DNA from: a virus
Lineage: Duplodnaviria > Heunggongvirae > Uroviricota > Caudoviricetes
Direction: 5' to 3' (one strand)
DNA length: 36,584 nucleotides
IMG/VR virus record: IMGVR_UViG_2718218304_000003
The notes under the pieces are model-generated. The model was given only the letters and a program-made list of their open reading frames with translations. It was not told the DNA's origin and searched no databases. Position 1 is the first letter of the stretch, and each line of letters opens with the position of its first letter. This document shows, piece by piece, positions 2,856 to 36,584 of this stretch. A program made the translations under genes and the position numbers.

Positions 2856-3074
2856 TCAAAGAGAGAGCGCCACCTGTCCTGATTTCATTGGATGCGGCTG
2901 AACCGGATTTGACTCTTTTGGCGTTGCAATCGAACGAACAAAAGTTTCATGGGTAACAAAAGTATGGCTGCAGTTAATGTTCTGGCACTGGTTGTAACGC
3001 TCTTTGGTCAATGAAGATACCTGAAAACTGCTGCGAGTATGGGCGGCACTTCCACACAGTGGGCAAATCATCAT
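2856..3074 (-). CDS. ogr: late-gene transcriptional activator, Ogr/B family zinc finger
   Basis: C-x2-C...C-x4-C motif (CPLCG...CQNINC); start moved to internal Met (MICPLCG) giving 72 aa, the Ogr length; sits next to gene D as in P2/186. Confidence 0.8.
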   Translation of the reverse strand: MMICPLCGSAAHTRSSFQVSSLTKERYNQCQNINCSHTFVTHETFVRSIATPKESNPVQPHPMKSGQVALSL

Positions 3075-3164
3075 TTTTCGAGTTCTCCCCATTTTTGCTA
3101 AATTCACAATAATGATACCGCATTATTCCATTTTGCAAACTTAAAAGTTCTCCATTGCGAAGAA

Positions 3165-4265
3165 TCATTCCATTTCGAAATCATCAATCCTCACTTCAAG
3201 CTCCAGACTGGTCGTAAAACCGTTATCCGGGCTGACGGTATGCGTCAGAGTCGTAATGGTCCATTCCGCATCATCTATCGGCTGTTTAAAACCACTGACC
3301 TTCACAGGCATTTCCGTGTAGAGATCTGCCCGCCCTTCTGCCAGTTGTAGCGAAAATGACGCAACGCCGCGTTGCAGGCGTTCCCACTGCATTTTCGCCG
3401 CTCGTTCGGCGTTGCTCCGGTTGGCATAAGTGCGATTAAGTACCAGCACGTTTTCATCCGTACCCACCAGGTAATCGCCCTGCTTCGCTTCTGGCTCTTT
3501 CTTCTGCTTCTTAGTTCTGCGCTTACGCTTCACCGTGGTGCTTTCTTTCTTCGCAGGTTCGCGGGTATGCAACCAGCTGGCAATTACGCCCGTGTAGGCT
3601 CCGCGATCTGCCAGGGTAAATCGGTGACTGTCGCCGTCCTTGCGTGTGATAGTGATCACTGGCAGAGGTTTACCAGTGGCGCTTTTGCCCTGCCCCTGCC
3701 GGATGAATAACAGATTGCCATTTTTCACCGACGCGATGGCACCGTACTGTCGCGCCAGCCGCATCAGAAAACTGCCGTCACTCTCATTAGTCTGGTCTAT
3801 ATGCTCCACGGGCTTATCCGACAGGTCTTTACCCAGTGCCATCTTCAGCTTGTGCCGCGCGGCTATTTCCTTCACCACTTCCCCGACGGTGGTCTTGTGC
3901 CACGATTTTTCACGGCGGGTATTCAGCGTTTCCCGAAAATCAGCACTTCGCGCCCGGATAGTCAGGCGGTCCGGTGCGCCAGTGTGTTCAATCTCGTCCA
4001 CCGTGAATGTCCCTTTCGGGAAAAGCGGCTGCCCCTTCCAGCCCAGCGCCAGCGTAATGACCGCACCACGGCGCGGCAGCACGATTTTTCCGTCGGCGTC
4101 GTCCAGCTCCAGATCAAGCTGGTCCGCGTCAAAGCCCCGATTGTCCGTCAACGTCAGACTCATCAGACGGTTATCCAGCACAGTAGTGATATCCCTGCCC
4201 TCAATACTGATGCTGAATGCGGGAGTTTTGTTGCCTTTGTTAAGCAGTTCAGAGCTGAAATTCAC
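3165..4265 (-). CDS. D: tail protein gpD
   Basis: 366 aa; conserved blocks match P2 D (TPAFSI..GRDIT, LTLTDNRGF.ADQLD, RARSADFR, WTIT..THT); position and overlap with U. Confidence 0.9.
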   Translation of the reverse strand: MNFSSELLNKGNKTPAFSISIEGRDITTVLDNRLMSLTLTDNRGFDADQLDLELDDADGKIVLPRRGAVITLALGWKGQPLFPKGTFTVDEIEHTGAPDRLTIRARSADFRETLNTRREKSWHKTTVGEVVKEIAARHKLKMALGKDLSDKPVEHIDQTNESDGSFLMRLARQYGAIASVKNGNLLFIRQGQGKSATGKPLPVITITRKDGDSHRFTLADRGAYTGVIASWLHTREPAKKESTTVKRKRRTKKQKKEPEAKQGDYLVGTDENVLVLNRTYANRSNAERAAKMQWERLQRGVASFSLQLAEGRADLYTEMPVKVSGFKQPIDDAEWTITTLTHTVSPDNGFTTSLELEVRIDDFEME

Positions 4266-33679: not shown

Positions 33680-34189
33680 TCACAGCAAACCGAATGAAGC
33701 ACCGAGGCCAGTCACGGTATCAACTGCACTCGCCATCGCAGGATTAGCCTGTAAACGGGCCTGCAATGAAACAGCAGCCAGCGCCATCAGTCGTGTAACA
33801 GAGTTAATGCTGCTGATCGCATCACGACGGCCTGCACTGGTTTTTACATCGCCAGAAACCGCACCTGCCGCGACACGCCCTATCTCTGCAGTTGCACTCA
33901 TGACGTAATGCGGCAGTTTCTCTTTTGCCACCTCATTAATCGGTACACATGGCAGGCAGTGAATCTGTGCCAGAAAGCCATCTACCAGCGTTGAATCTTC
34001 AGTCAGATCGGTAAGCAACCAGATTTCTGGTGCGGTTAATAAATGAGGTTGAGCTGGGTTCAGCTTGTTCCGCAGAATCTGCACATTCATGCCTGCACGT
34101 TCTGCCAGTTGCACTAGGTTGTGGCGCAATGCGAATGCACGACAGGCTTCATCAAAATGTGGATGTTTGGAAACTTGGTAATCAAACAT
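33680..34189 (-). CDS. cII: CII-like transcriptional activator (phage 186 type)
   Basis: 169 aa from [11 protein letters not shown], matching my recollection of 186 CII length and N-terminus; follows apl. Confidence 0.65.
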
Positions 34190-34221
34190 GGTCAATGCCT
34201 CTGATGTATTTCAGAATCGAA

Positions 34222-34443
34222 CTAATTAAGGTTTAGATTGCATTCTGAAAGCGCATCAACGGTCATGGCTGCTATGTTGATCATCACTTTTTCACGTTTT
34301 TTATCTTTGCGCAGACGGTGACGGATAAGGCGTCCGTCAGCCAACATGTCATTGATGGTATCGATGGACAGCCCTGTCAGCTCGCTATAGCGTTCAATAG
34401 TCACATGAGGCGTGGTAAGAGTGATTGAAATGTTAGGTCTCAT
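34222..34443 (-). CDS. apl: Apl/Cox-like excisionase and switch regulator
   Basis: 73-aa basic protein, first gene of the early operon, divergent from cI. Confidence 0.55.
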
Positions 34444-34568
34444 GATGCAACATTCCTCGTTTAATGATGATTAATCAGGACGAATACGGATCGTTTGTAT
34501 TTTGTGAACACCATAAACATACGATCGCACAGTGAAATCGTCAAGATAAAAGTTCACTTGGAGTGACC
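34444..34568. promoter_or_regulatory. lysis-lysogeny switch region
   Basis: 125-bp divergent intergenic region between apl and cI with repeated GTGAA/TTCAC motifs; operators not resolved. Confidence 0.4.
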
Positions 34569-35138
34569 ATGAATTTGGAGAAAGGCGGACGAGGCGCTAT
34601 AGAGCGCATGGTAGAAGCTTATGGATTCAAAACTCGACAGGCGTTGTGCGATCATTTAGGAATCTCTAAAAGTACACTCGCCACACGCTACATGCGTGAC
34701 TCATTCCCAGCAGAATGGGTAATCCAGTGCGCCCTTGAAACGGGCACCTCGCTTAATTGGCTCACAACCGGACATGGTTCAAAGCAAACTTCAGGTAATA
34801 CAAATACTATGGAAGTTGCTAAATATGTATTATCTGATGGTGCCTTGCGTGAAGACGGTTTTTATATTTTTGATAAGGGATTTCTACCCTCTACGTTTAA
34901 AAAACCTTTTGTCATCACAGATAACAATTCTGAATTTATTTGTGATAAAGAATTTGATGATATACGTGACGGTAAATGGGTAATAAGTATTGATGGCGAA
35001 ATAACAATCCGCGACATTACTCGTTTACCCGGTGGAAGAATCTTCGTTGAAGGTGGAAACAGAGCCTTCGAGTGCAAGATAGAAGATGTTGAAATAATTG
35101 GGAAAATTATAAGTTTAACAATTAAGTACGTTAGGTAA
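34569..35138 (+). CDS. cI: CI-like immunity repressor (phage 186 type)
   Basis: 189 aa from ATG preceded by SD GGAG (ORF track starts at GTG 34563); N-terminal HTH-like domain; length close to 186 CI; AT-rich C-terminal half. Confidence 0.7.
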   Translation: MNLEKGGRGAIERMVEAYGFKTRQALCDHLGISKSTLATRYMRDSFPAEWVIQCALETGTSLNWLTTGHGSKQTSGNTNTMEVAKYVLSDGALREDGFYIFDKGFLPSTFKKPFVITDNNSEFICDKEFDDIRDGKWVISIDGEITIRDITRLPGGRIFVEGGNRAFECKIEDVEIIGKIISLTIKYVR

Positions 35139-35153
35139 TACCGGGAGGAAACT

Positions 35154-35345
35154 ATGCTTGGTAAGGTATTTTTTGTGGTTTTATCATGCTCTTTGTTATT
35201 AAACCCACTAACTACCTATGCTAAAAATTATCCTTGTTCTGGGAAAAAGGGAGGTGTCTCTCACTGTACCTCCGATGGAAAGTTCGTTTGCAATGATGGA
35301 ACTATTAGTAAATCAAAAAAAATCTGTACTAAAAACTCGCGATAA
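35154..35345 (+). CDS. small secreted cysteine-rich peptide (moron candidate)
   Basis: 63 aa; strong SD GGGAGGA; signal peptide then ~40-aa Lys-rich mature part with 4 Cys; AT-rich. Confidence 0.55.
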
Positions 35346-35453
35346 ATTTTGCTTTTATATCTGCGCCTAATATAACAATGAGCCGCAGGCTAACCGCAAA
35401 AGTCACATACTCACATAGCAAAAAATAGCCAACTTCATTATGGCTTCAGTGAG

Positions 35454-36584
35454 ATGTATGGTCGCAGGATTTCATACATTGACACTGGTTATATATACAG
35501 TAAAAATGTTCTCTATTGGAGGGCATTTTTTATGGCAGTACGAAAACTCACCACAGGAAAATGGCTTTGCGAATGTTACCCCGCCGGACGTAGTGGGCGT
35601 CGTGTGCGTAAACAATTCGCCACCAAAGGCGAAGCTCTGGCTTTTGAGCGCCATACGATGGAAGAAACCGAAGCAAAGCCCTGGCTGGGAGAATCAGTGG
35701 ATCGTCGAACACTGAAAGACGTGGTTGAGCTATGGTTCAAACTACATGGTAAATCTCTAACCGCTGGGCAGCATGTCTATGATAAATTGCTGTTGATGGT
35801 TGACGCTCTGGGCAATCCCCTTGCAACCGATCTCACCTCTAAAATGTTTGCCCACTATCGAGATAAACGCCTGACAGGTGAGATCTACTTCAGCGAGAAA
35901 TGGAAGAAAGGAGCAAGCCCGGTCACCATTAACCTGGAGCAAAGCTATCTAAGTAGTGTTTTTAGCGAACTATCCCGCCTGGGCGAATGGTCGTATCCAA
36001 ACCCACTGGAGAACATGCGAAAATTCACCATCGCAGAAAAAGAGATGGCATGGCTTACCCATGAGCAGATTGTTGAACTGCTGGCTGATTGCAAACGTCA
36101 GGACCCAATTCTGGCACTGGTAGTCAAGATATGCTTAAGCACAGGCGCACGCTGGCGAGAAGCAATAAACCTTACCCGATCACAGGTGACTAAATACCGA
36201 ATTACCTTTGTAAGAACGAAGGGGAAGAAAAACAGAAGCATCCCTATCAGTAAAGAGCTTTATGAAGAGATCATGGCGCTTGATGGGTTCAATTTCTTCA
36301 CAGACTGCTATTTTCAATTTTTATCCGTGATGGAAAAAACGTCAATCGTGCTCCCTCGCGGTCAACTGACACACGTTCTGCGCCATACGTTTGCGGCGCA
36401 TTTCATGATGTCGGGTGGAAATATCCTTGCTTTGCAAAAAATCCTCGGACATCACGATATAAAAATGACTATGCGTTACGCTCATCTGGCACCGGATCAT
36501 CTGGAAACGGCGCTCCGTTTCAATCCTCTGGCAACGCTGCCAAGTGGCGACAAAGTGGCGGCAGCGGTTGGCATTACCCCGTAA
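35454..36584 (+). CDS. int: tyrosine integrase (P2/186 family)
   Basis: C-terminal catalytic region with R...HxxR...Y (VLRHTFAAHF, MRYAHL); true start probably the internal MAVRKL near 35532; stop is the last codon of the window. Confidence 0.9.
   Translation: MYGRRISYIDTGYIYSKNVLYWRAFFMAVRKLTTGKWLCECYPAGRSGRRVRKQFATKGEALAFERHTMEETEAKPWLGESVDRRTLKDVVELWFKLHGKSLTAGQHVYDKLLLMVDALGNPLATDLTSKMFAHYRDKRLTGEIYFSEKWKKGASPVTINLEQSYLSSVFSELSRLGEWSYPNPLENMRKFTIAEKEMAWLTHEQIVELLADCKRQDPILALVVKICLSTGARWREAINLTRSQVTKYRITFVRTKGKKNRSIPISKELYEEIMALDGFNFFTDCYFQFLSVMEKTSIVLPRGQLTHVLRHTFAAHFMMSGGNILALQKILGHHDIKMTMRYAHLAPDHLETALRFNPLATLPSGDKVAAAVGITP

What the first reader, a model, noticed from the sequence alone, without database searches (positions are those of the whole stretch)
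35154..35345. Small secreted four-cysteine peptide between cI and int (moron candidate)
A 63-aa ORF with an excellent SD (GGGAGGA) has a typical signal peptide followed by a ~40-aa Lys-rich mature peptide with four cysteines. It is AT-rich and sits in the lysogenic cI-int transcript, so it would be expressed in the lysogen. The predicted periplasmic location and lysogenic expression fit a superinfection-exclusion or lysogenic-conversion factor. I do not recall a gene at this position in P2 or 186.
Basis: partly seen in the sequence, partly recalled or inferred. Interest (0 to 1): 0.5.

Follow-up and report, generated by a model that had tools for sequence, protein, structure and literature searches.

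The report
Prophage YdcA-family secreted mini-protein gene
The 63-codon gene is real and encodes an exported, disulfide-rich mini-protein of the already catalogued but functionally unknown YdcA family, which temperate phages and plasmids carry as cargo and which repeatedly turns up fused or adjacent to secreted DNA-cutting enzymes.

Summary
The ORF at 35154-35345 (+) is a genuine gene. It passes the curated NCBIfam YdcA model NF007463 (116 bits, cut-off 93). It matches phrog_6000 at 4.6e-34, and RefSeq already names the identical protein "YdcA family protein". It lies 15 nt after the cI stop of a 186-like prophage. Phages 186 and P2 have no gene in this slot.

Eighty phage-contig copies are all intact. 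They carry 19 synonymous and 4 non-synonymous polymorphic sites, and none of the non-synonymous sites falls in the Cys-rich domain.

An unannotated homologue sits in the same cI-int slot of Haemophilus phages HP2 and S2. Other homologues lie in variable cargo regions of Acinetobacter and Citrobacter prophages, in the tail-gene region of Moraxella phages, on plasmids, and in the K-12 chromosome (ydcA).

No function is known. New clues:
- The domain is fused to three unrelated secreted nuclease folds.
- It neighbours a secreted SNase gene and exported OB-fold proteins.
- It resembles the two lobes of Dis2, a Legionella type IV secretion outer-membrane-cap subunit.

Best guess, inferred only: a periplasmic module that binds DNA or a DNA-entry machine, expressed with cI. 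Superinfection exclusion is plausible but untested.

The parts
34569..35138 (+). cI immunity repressor (186 type, 189 aa), the gene directly upstream
   Evidence: Pfam Phage_CI_repr 2.8e-33 and Phage_CI_C 2e-28. The PGAP start was taken from the identical RefSeq locus. It is 32% identical to 186 CI and to HP2 CI.
35143..35149 (+). Shine-Dalgarno GGGAGGA, 4 nt before the ATG
   Evidence: Read from the sequence.
35154..35345 (+). YdcA-family gene (63 aa plus stop)
   Evidence: ORF list. NF007463 scores 116.1 bits against a cut-off of 93. phrog_6000 gives 4.6e-34. PF27300 is recorded for its cluster. RefSeq names it WP_001321204.1 'YdcA family protein'. Purifying selection is shown.
35154..35222 (+). 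Predicted Sec signal peptide (residues 1-23, predicted cleavage TYA|KN)
   Evidence: Leader statistics over 277 family members. A23 is at least 90% conserved in alignment A1 while the rest of the leader varies freely. The cleavage site is predicted, not shown.
35223..35342 (+). Mature 40-aa Lys-rich peptide carrying the YdcA domain ([12 protein letters not shown]...[15 protein letters not shown]; Cys 28, 38, 46, 58)
   Evidence: The conserved columns are listed. The AF2 model has pLDDT 81 and two short strands. Net charge is +7.
35346..35531 (+). AT-rich spacer between ydcA and int. It holds a promoter-like site (TTGACA-17-AAAAAT, 35479-35507) and a 13-bp hairpin (about 35502-35530) that covers the int Shine-Dalgarno
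   Evidence: No + strand terminator was found. The RNA fold has z = -2.98. Homology to the int modules of other phages begins at 35474. No Rfam match.
35532..36584 (+). Tyrosine integrase (350 aa), the last gene of the prophage next to rcdA
   Evidence: Pfam Int_N 3e-32 and Phage_integrase 7e-22. RefSeq annotation of the identical locus.

Best explanation
Identity (near certain): a YdcA-family gene carried as cargo directly behind cI in the lysogenic operon of a 186-like E. coli prophage.

Predicted fate of the product (predicted, not shown): it is made together with CI in the lysogen, exported by Sec, cleaved after TYA, and folded into a ~36-residue module with probably two disulfides in the periplasm.

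Mechanism (inferred, moderate-to-low confidence): the YdcA module is a small basic extracytoplasmic binding domain. It acts on nucleic acid in the envelope, or on the outer-membrane machines through which DNA passes. As a free peptide in a lysogen it would bind incoming DNA (superinfecting phage, conjugative or transforming DNA) or its entry port, and so hinder entry. This would be a second layer of protection co-expressed with the repressor. In relatives the same module is fused to periplasmic or secreted nucleases, where it would serve as their substrate- or site-targeting domain.

The confidence of 0.35 refers to the mechanism. The identity part is about 0.95.
For: Identity and selection
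- Family membership.
- Selection within 80 copies: pN/pS about 0.06, with no amino-acid change in the Cys-rich domain.
- In a sister prophage lineage overall identity is 70%. By eye in that alignment, the mature domain is 35/37 identical and the signal peptide about 35%. The CI there is 71% identical overall, with its first 62 residues identical and the rest diverged.

Likely expression in the lysogen
- The gene starts 15 nt after the cI stop here and 23 nt after it in the L009 type. In HP2 the ATG overlaps the cI stop (TAATG).
- No + strand terminator lies before int.
- In 80 more diverse phage contigs the upstream gene is a 186-type CI in 16, an S24-type CI in 1, an HTH protein annotated here as antitoxin-like in 20, and HicB in 11.

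Link to extracytoplasmic nucleic acid
- Signal peptide-YdcA-nuclease fusions exist with three unrelated folds: SNase (P0119, on a P2-like phage contig), Endonuclease_NS (P0177, P0170 and one more), and PLDc_2 (P0194).
- A separate secreted SNase gene ends 24 nt before ydcA in viral contig L119.
- Exported OB-fold 'tRNA_anti-like' proteins lie next to ydcA in HP2-like phages and two genes downstream of it on an Acinetobacter plasmid. The two proteins are homologous.
- The domain is basic: median net charge +4 per 36 aa across 203 domains, and +7 here.

Precedents
- Periplasmic DNases on mobile elements (IdeA, SxnA, Dns) block incoming DNA (PMC12378983).
- The cI-int slot is a reported defence hotspot in K139-like phages (PMC9122126).
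- That slot holds other cargo in relatives of this prophage.
Against: - No experiment addresses this family in phage infection, conjugation or transformation.
- There are no PADLOC matches.
- The invariant residues are Cys, Gly, Pro, Ser and Phe, which look structural. The Lys residues are mostly at variable positions.
- The domains fused to nucleases are less basic, about +1 to +4 (counted by eye). 23 of 203 domains have a net charge of +1 or less.
- The only solved probable relative, Dis2, contacts lipoproteins DotK, DotC and DotD at the periphery of the complex, not DNA and not the channel (PMC12716638).
- K-12 ydcA is linked in the literature to 3-hydroxypropionate and acid tolerance and to an RpoS promoter site, not to DNA (PMC7642389, PMC5493296).
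- From general knowledge: phage DNA is thought to cross the periplasm inside a protein conduit, and E. coli is not readily transformable.
- In Moraxella and Acinetobacter phages the gene lies in the tail-gene region, so expression in the lysogen is not guaranteed everywhere.
Confidence: 0.35

Rival explanations
1. Envelope-docking or envelope-conditioning module. The peptide binds a conserved component at the periplasmic face of the outer membrane (a lipoprotein, an OmpA-like domain, peptidoglycan, or the anionic inner leaflet). It changes envelope properties, giving the lysogen stress tolerance. That would be lysogenic conversion, not exclusion. In the nuclease fusions the domain would only tether the enzyme to the envelope.
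For: - The only probable solved relative, Dis2, is a tandem of two such lobes docked on lipoproteins DotK, DotC and DotD next to the outer membrane (PMC8486379, PMC12716638).
- A K-12 ydcA deletion is sensitive to 3-hydroxypropionate, ydcA is reported as acid-induced, and an RpoS-holoenzyme site lies upstream (PMC7642389, PMC5493296).
- Very high conservation of the mature domain across Haemophilus, Moraxella, Acinetobacter and enterobacteria points to a universal target.
- Its neighbours are often lipoproteins.
Against: - It does not by itself explain why the only catalytic domains found fused to YdcA are nucleases of three different folds.
- It does not explain the recurrent exported OB-fold and SNase neighbours.
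Confidence: 0.3
2. Receptor- or port-blocking superinfection exclusion of the classical kind. The peptide binds a specific host surface protein that phages use for adsorption or DNA ejection, in the manner of Cor, Llp or K139 Glo.
For: - It lies in the lysogenic operon between cI and int. In K139 this slot holds glo, called a periplasmic protein and immunity gene in PMC4870250. My recollection of Nesper et al. 1999 is that Glo takes part in exclusion.
- The cI-int slot is a defence hotspot (PMC9122126).
Against: - The mature domain is about 75% identical between hosts as different as Moraxella, Haemophilus and E. coli. That argues against a species-specific receptor.
- There is no lipobox. Cys12 lies too early and is not conserved.
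- K139 was not among the tblastn hits, so the protein is not a Glo homologue at that sensitivity.
- No PADLOC match.
Confidence: 0.1
3. Inhibitor or immunity factor for periplasmic nucleases. The peptide binds and neutralises secreted nucleases (its own partner's or a competitor's), and in the fusions it acts as an inhibitory pro-domain.
For: Adjacency and fusion to nucleases. Small disulfide-rich proteins are a common format for enzyme inhibitors (general knowledge).
Against: - One small domain is unlikely to inhibit three structurally unrelated nuclease folds.
- The great majority of family members are stand-alone proteins, and no nuclease gene was seen in the neighbourhoods that were inspected.
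- No nuclease gene accompanies it in the part of this prophage that was inspected.
Confidence: 0.07
4. Secreted antimicrobial or bacteriocin-like cationic peptide, or a non-functional hitch-hiking ORF.
For: It is a short, cationic, Cys-rich, signal-bearing peptide.
Against: - A Sec signal alone delivers the peptide only to the periplasm.
- No immunity or export genes are adjacent.
- Strong purifying selection and very wide conservation exclude a meaningless ORF.
Confidence: 0.03

Closest known systems
E. coli K-12 YdcA (b1419; NCBIfam NF007462 / Pfam PF27300)
   Same: The architecture is the same: a signal peptide plus a ~36-aa four-Cys domain. Overall identity is 57%, with the same PCSGxKGG...FVCNDGxISxSKKxC motif. 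The function of YdcA is unknown, and it is predicted to be periplasmic (PMC11340327).
   Different: - The window protein falls short of the K-12 equivalog model (68 bits against a cut-off of 118) and belongs to the sister model NF007463.
- It is prophage-borne, behind cI. K-12 ydcA is chromosomal, between rydC and hokB.
- The window peptide has a more basic C-terminal tail.
Unannotated 60-aa ORF of Haemophilus phages HP2 and S2 (NC_003315 complement 2486-2668)
   Same: It occupies the same slot, immediately after a 186-type CI and before int, in a P2-family phage. The ORF is intact with a signal peptide, and it is 49% identical over a 53-residue alignment that spans part of the leader and the mature domain.
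   Different: - Its CI is only 32% identical to the window CI.
- Its ATG overlaps the cI stop.
- A 254-aa exported OB-fold protein follows it before int.
- It is not annotated in the deposited records.
[quoted passage not shown]
   Same: - Each of its two lobes carries the motif C-x-x-(K)MGG[IV]-...-[LV]VCN[ND]G-x-x-S.
- It is the top hit of both the sequence profile and the Foldseek search (38-39% identity over 37-38 columns).
- Dis2-like fragments carry a precomputed PF27300 hit.
- hhalign gives E = 3e-5 for the pairwise comparison.
- It is periplasmic and disulfide-pinned (PMC8486379).
   Different: - Dis2 is a tandem of two lobes with five disulfides, built into a 13-fold secretion complex.
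- It is described as Legionella-specific and without structural homologues (PMC8486379, PMC12716638).
- The window protein is a single free domain.
Periplasmic DNases of mobile elements that block incoming DNA (IdeA and SxnA of Vibrio ICEs; Dns, CJE0566 and CJE1441 of Campylobacter prophages)
   Same: They are carried by mobile elements and exported, and they act on DNA in the periplasm (PMC12378983). YdcA-domain proteins include exported SNase, Endonuclease_NS and PLD-type fusions, one of them on a P2-like phage contig.
   Different: The window protein has no catalytic domain. Homology between YdcA fusions and IdeA or Dns was not tested. The parallel is functional and inferred.
K139 Glo and other cargo of the cI-int slot in P2-family phages
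   Same: It is a gene for an exported protein sitting between cI and int and expressed from the lysogenic side. The slot is a reported defence hotspot (PMC9122126, PMC4870250). Relatives of this prophage hold a 349-aa protein, a 558-aa ATPase or a KAP NTPase there.
   Different: There is no sequence similarity to Glo at tblastn sensitivity. The exclusion activity of Glo is cited from memory of Nesper et al. 1999, which I did not read here.

Membership tests
YdcA family (Pfam PF27300; NCBIfam NF007463 'PRK10040.1-2'; phrog_6000) | Whole-protein score above the curated cut-off of the family model | tested here: met
   NF007463 scores 116.1 bits against a cut-off of 93, over residues 5-63 and profile positions 1-58 of 58. 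phrog_6000 gives 4.6e-34. PF27300 is precomputed for its cluster. The local Pfam copy lacks PF27300.
YdcA family (Pfam PF27300; NCBIfam NF007463 'PRK10040.1-2'; phrog_6000) | Architecture: N-terminal signal peptide followed by a single ~36-aa domain with four invariant Cys and the P-C-S-G-x-K-G-G...F-x-C-x-D-G-x-x-S-x-S-K motif; total length 55-70 aa | tested here: met
   All invariant and nearly invariant columns are present in the window protein.
K-12 YdcA equivalog (NF007462) | Score above the equivalog cut-off (118 bits) | tested here: not met
   68 bits and 57% identity to b1419. It is a paralogous subfamily, not the K-12 orthologue.
Moron (Juhala/Hendrix sense) | An extra gene inserted between genes that are adjacent in related phages | tested here: met
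   cI and int abut in 186. C and int are separated by 115 bp with no gene in P2. Other relatives hold different cargo in the slot.
Moron (Juhala/Hendrix sense) | Its own promoter and terminator, and base composition distinct from its neighbours | tested here: not met
   No strong promoter-like site lies upstream of the ATG: the only site near it is a weak 9-of-12 match inside the ORF's first codons. No + strand terminator lies downstream. The low-GC tract also covers the 3' half of cI. The gene looks like operon-embedded cargo rather than an autonomous unit.
Known anti-phage defence or exclusion proteins (PADLOC-DB v2) | Match to any model of a known or candidate defence protein | tested here: not met
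   0 families at E <= 1.
Lipoprotein-type superinfection exclusion (Cor, Llp, Ltp type) | Lipobox with a Cys at +1 after a signal peptide of normal length | tested here: not met
   The only leader Cys is residue 12 (VLSC). That is too early for a lipoprotein signal, and the Cys is absent from most homologues. The conserved site is AXA-like, typical of SPase I.
Superinfection exclusion or lysogenic conversion factor (functional class) | Expression in the lysogen and a measurable effect on incoming phage or on a host phenotype | not testable with these tools
   Only positional inference is available.
Dis2-like type IV secretion cap subunit | Two tandem lobes pinned by five disulfides, assembled with DotC, DotD and DotK | tested here: not met
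   The window protein has a single domain with four Cys. No T4SS genes are nearby. Only the domain appears to be shared.

The most novel reading that the evidence does not exclude
YdcA-family peptides are a widespread, unrecognised class of periplasmic mini-proteins. They bind DNA or DNA-entry ports, and temperate phages and plasmids co-express them with their repressors or addiction modules to intercept incoming DNA (phage, conjugative or transforming). The same module targets mobile-element nucleases to that DNA, and it was recruited twice over into the Legionella Dot/Icm outer-membrane cap as Dis2.
Probability: 0.2. Interest if true: 0.7.

Novelty: already known. Interest (0 to 1): 0.38.

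Why it matters
The gene itself is catalogued, so finding it is not news. What remains open is the function of a tiny, extremely conserved exported protein.
- At least 80% of the 1.2-kb cI-ydcA-int query is present in 591 of 5426 complete E. coli genomes.
- Relatives are encoded on 533 IMG/VR phage contigs.
- The family has 478 clusters at 50% identity.
- E. coli K-12 carries a paralogue.

The nuclease fusions, the SNase and OB-fold neighbours and the Dis2 resemblance give the first concrete, cheaply testable hypotheses for this family. If the peptide does interfere with DNA entry, it would be a minimal defence or exclusion factor that current defence-finding tools miss. It would also give a function-bearing homologue to Dis2, a secretion-system subunit that the literature describes as Legionella-specific.

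Tried and rejected
- PADLOC scan: nothing.
- Local Pfam scan of the protein: only a sub-threshold GULLO2-like hit, because PF27300 is newer than the local copy.
- lpg1681 family hit at E = 0.11: ignored as insignificant.
- Rfam scan of 34100-35700: nothing.
- PDB sequence hits to VLDL-receptor LA repeats (E 0.035-0.2) and lysozyme: judged cysteine-pattern coincidences, because the Cys spacing differs.
- phmmer of the tandem-repeat protein P0081 against the PDB: did not recover Dis2. P0080 did, marginally.
- Lipoprotein reading of Cys12: rejected.
- An intrinsic terminator after the ORF was looked for. Only a - strand candidate at 35399-35383 was found. By hand, its G-T pairs become A-C mismatches on the + strand.
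- The UniRef name 'Conjugal transfer protein' for the cluster was followed into the plasmid collection. 58 of 72,556 plasmids carry a homologue. In the three loci inspected it lies among cargo, toxin-antitoxin or lipoprotein genes, not in transfer operons.
- A recalled resemblance to DUF3761 was not recovered by any search and is not claimed.
- Literature on ydcA gave no functional study beyond 3-HP sensitivity, acid induction and transcriptome lists.

Full report
**Observation**

The window ends with the lysogeny module of a 186-like (Peduoviridae) prophage. The gene order is:
- an Apl/Cox-like ORF on the minus strand;
- cI (34569-35138);
- the 63-codon ORF (35154-35345);
- a 186-bp spacer;
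- int (35532-36584).

In an identical RefSeq locus the next gene is the host rcdA. The ORF starts 15 nt after the cI stop and has a GGGAGGA Shine-Dalgarno 4 nt upstream of the ATG. The product has a basic N-terminus (K4), a hydrophobic core, and T-Y-A before a 40-residue mature part. The mature part has four Cys, net charge +7 and pI 9.6.

**The ORF is a real gene**

- It scores 116.1 bits on the curated NCBIfam model NF007463, whose cut-off is 93.
- It matches phrog_6000 at 4.6e-34.
- The exact sequence is on record on at least 1000 contigs.
- PGAP already names it "YdcA family protein", WP_001321204.1.
- A megablast of 34400-35600 finds at least 80% of that region in 591 of 5426 complete E. 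coli genomes.
- Among 80 near-identical IMG/VR copies there are ten alleles, all intact.
- Those copies carry 19 synonymous and 4 non-synonymous polymorphic sites, over 42.7 synonymous and 146.3 non-synonymous sites.
- All four amino-acid changes lie at residues 5, 17, 20 and 24. That is the leader and the first mature residue.
- A sister lineage integrated at the same host site shows a telling pattern.
  - The CI N-terminal 62 residues are identical and the rest of CI has diverged (71% overall).
  - The YdcA proteins are 70% identical overall.
  - By eye in that alignment, the leader is about 35% identical and the mature domain 35/37 identical.
- Selection therefore acts on the mature peptide.

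**The family**

In an alignment of 36 homologues the leaders vary freely, while the mature core is nearly invariant: [11 protein letters not shown][VI]SHC..G.F[VI]CNDG..S.SKK.C. In 277 members an AXA-like site is always present. In 258 of them it lies 2-3 residues before the PCS motif.

An exhaustive profile search finds 478 clusters at 50% identity with E <= 1e-3. A word-indexed search of the 90% clusters finds 637. Where hits in these searches carry organism names they are gamma- and beta-proteobacteria. tblastn against plasmids also finds weaker matches (51-62% identity) on Rhizobium, Sinorhizobium and Ensifer plasmids.

E. coli K-12 YdcA (b1419, between rydC and hokB) is 57% identical. It belongs to the sister model NF007462, which the window protein does not pass. 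The literature gives no function for YdcA:
- It is described as a 57-aa protein of unknown function with a signal sequence (PMC11340327).
- Its deletion in E. coli W is sensitive to 300 mM 3-hydroxypropionate, and the gene is said to be acid-induced (PMC7642389).
- An RpoS-holoenzyme SELEX site lies upstream (PMC5493296).
- It rises at the transition toward persisters (bioRxiv 10.1101/310961).

**Position and mobility**

Phage 186 has cI and int abutting, and P2 has C and int 115 bp apart with no gene between them. Relatives with homologous int modules hold other cargo in the slot:
- a 349-aa protein in Klebsiella phage 4LV2017;
- a 558-aa "chromosome segregation ATPase" in vB_EcoM-813R9;
- a KAP NTPase that follows ydcA in the sister lineage.

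A cI-int defence hotspot has been reported for K139-like phages (PMC9122126).

Strikingly, Haemophilus phages HP2 and S2 carry an intact but unannotated 60-aa YdcA ORF in the same place. Its ATG overlaps the cI stop, although that CI is only 32% identical to the one here. Elsewhere the gene lies in several other settings:
- in the tail-gene region of Moraxella Mcat and Acinetobacter Vieuvirus phages and prophages;
- in the region between the replication genes and RusA of a lambdoid Citrobacter prophage, beside HicAB and DinI;
- on 58 of 72,556 plasmids, including a 5.4-kb Psychrobacter plasmid whose only cargo is lipoprotein-ydcA-unknown.

In 80 more diverse IMG/VR loci the upstream neighbour was classified by clustering and Pfam:

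| Upstream neighbour | Loci |
|---|---|
| HTH protein, antitoxin-like | 20 |
| 186-type CI | 16 |
| HicB | 11 |
| S24-type CI | 1 |

These are genes typically expressed in a prophage. No + strand intrinsic terminator separates cI, ydcA and int here. Expression in the lysogen is therefore likely, but it is inferred. The gene is cargo, yet it lacks the autonomous promoter, terminator and compositional island of a textbook moron.

**Clues to mechanism**

1. Fusions. Among the best 150 family representatives, at least five have the order signal peptide, YdcA domain, linker, nuclease. The nucleases belong to three unrelated folds:
   - SNase (P0119);
   - DNA/RNA non-specific endonuclease (P0177, P0170 and one more);
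   - PLD-like (P0194).

   These are, and the collection's precomputed Pfam hits confirm them. The SNase fusion sits on a 37.6-kb P2-like phage contig, just past the tail gene D. Other long members are tandem repeats of the domain, or fusions to non-catalytic modules (PBCV_basic_adap, DUF4124, one VasL fragment).
2. Neighbours.
   - In viral contig L119 a secreted SNase gene ends 24 nt before ydcA.
   - In HP2-like phages the next gene encodes an exported protein matching the OB-fold family tRNA_anti-like, PF12869.
   - A homologous lipoprotein lies two genes downstream of ydcA on an Acinetobacter lwoffii plasmid.
3. Charge. The median net charge is +4 per 36 residues across 203 domains.
4. 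Structure.
   - AF2 gives a confident small fold with two short strands (pLDDT 81).
   - Its only PDB neighbours by Foldseek are chains of the Legionella Dot/Icm outer-membrane cap: 7mud_AN and 7muc_AN, probability 0.89 and 0.82, 38-39% identity.
   - The same chain is the second-best hit, and the best non-coincidental one, of the profile search (E 0.063), and the top hit of phmmer with a two-repeat family member (E 0.037).
   - That chain is Dis2/Lpg0823.
   - Dis2-like fragments carry a precomputed PF27300 hit, and hhalign gives E = 3e-5 for the pair.
   - Dis2 is described as two sequence-similar lobes pinned by five disulfides next to the outer membrane. It has no structural homologue (PMC8486379).
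   - Dis2 contacts DotK, DotC and DotD and is dispensable (PMC12716638).

**Interpretation**

A fold-agnostic accessory domain shared by three nuclease families is most simply a substrate-binding module or a localisation module. The exported OB-fold and SNase neighbours and the basic charge lean toward nucleic acid. The Dis2 precedent and the K-12 phenotypes lean toward docking on outer-membrane-associated proteins.

I therefore propose the following as the best single account. The prophage peptide is an exported, disulfide-bonded binding module that acts on DNA in the envelope or on a DNA-entry machine. It is co-expressed with CI and hinders incoming DNA. Mobile-element periplasmic DNases that block transformation are the functional precedent (PMC12378983).

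This mechanistic step is inferred and carries only about one-third confidence. The envelope-docking and stress-tolerance rival is nearly as likely. A species-specific receptor block is unlikely given about 75% identity of the mature domain across Moraxella, Haemophilus and E. coli. A nuclease-inhibitor role is unlikely across three folds. A meaningless ORF is excluded.

**Comparison and novelty**

The gene is a catalogued member of the YdcA family, so as an entity it is already known. The following appear not to be recorded in the annotations and papers I could read:
- the unannotated HP2/S2 homologue in the same slot;
- the recurrent nuclease and OB-fold associations;
- the probable relationship of Dis2 to this family.

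Together these make an obscure family experimentally approachable.

**Verdict**

Interest is moderate at 0.38.

Noticed in passing
[not shown]
   Followed up: yes
[not shown]
   Followed up: partly
window 35474-35534: The int gene has its own conserved leader. Homology to the int modules of Klebsiella phage 4LV2017 and others starts at 35474. The leader contains a promoter-like site (TTGACA-17-AAAAAT, 35479-35507) and a 13-bp hairpin (about 35502-35530) that pairs the int Shine-Dalgarno GGAGG. The 201-nt spacer folds with z = -2.98. This may be translational control of int, in place of the cI-int overlap seen in 186.
   Followed up: partly
L112 4120-4887; L001 3112-3876 (HP2 orf1(S)); L185 1690-2511 (A. 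lwoffii plasmid pAL_065-4): Exported proteins or lipoproteins matching the OB-fold family tRNA_anti-like (PF12869) recur next to or near ydcA in a Haemophilus P2-like phage lineage and on an Acinetobacter plasmid. The two are homologous to each other (28% identity, E = 1e-6).
   Followed up: partly
L180 4477-4866, L134 1370-2071, L161 4471-5157, L174 3074-3871, L155 4477-5010, L136 4472-5155, L146, L175, L149 (IMG/VR phage contigs of undetermined host; IMG/VR gave no host): About 350 nt downstream of ydcA, these phage contigs carry a polymorphic lipoprotein cassette. The signal peptide is nearly identical across loci (MKKIILLxL...GC), but at least nine unrelated mature domains follow it. Most have no Pfam match.
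   Followed up: no
L009 4414-6529, compared with window 34569-35345: A sister prophage lineage at the same rcdA site has a CI whose first 62 residues are identical to the window CI while its C-terminal domain has diverged. Its YdcA has a different leader. A KAP-family NTPase gene is inserted between ydcA and int.
   Followed up: partly
P0056, P0057, P0060-P0062 (about 105 aa; Herbaspirillum and metagenomes): These ~105-aa proteins (one from the beta-proteobacterium Herbaspirillum, the rest from metagenomes) extend the YdcA domain with a C-terminal Cys-rich CxGPRGGxYC...GxKxY module. One long family member (which one the tool did not report) matches Pfam PBCV_basic_adap (E 2.6e-4). Other family members are two- or three-fold tandem repeats of the YdcA domain (P0079-P0083).
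   Followed up: no
L119 933-3297 (IMG/VR contig 3300024893_000012): A tightly packed + strand operon runs: 136-aa ORF, 238-aa ORF, secreted SNase (2084-2554), YdcA (2579-2761), TPR protein (2860-3297). It is the unfused counterpart of the YdcA-SNase fusion P0119.
   Followed up: partly
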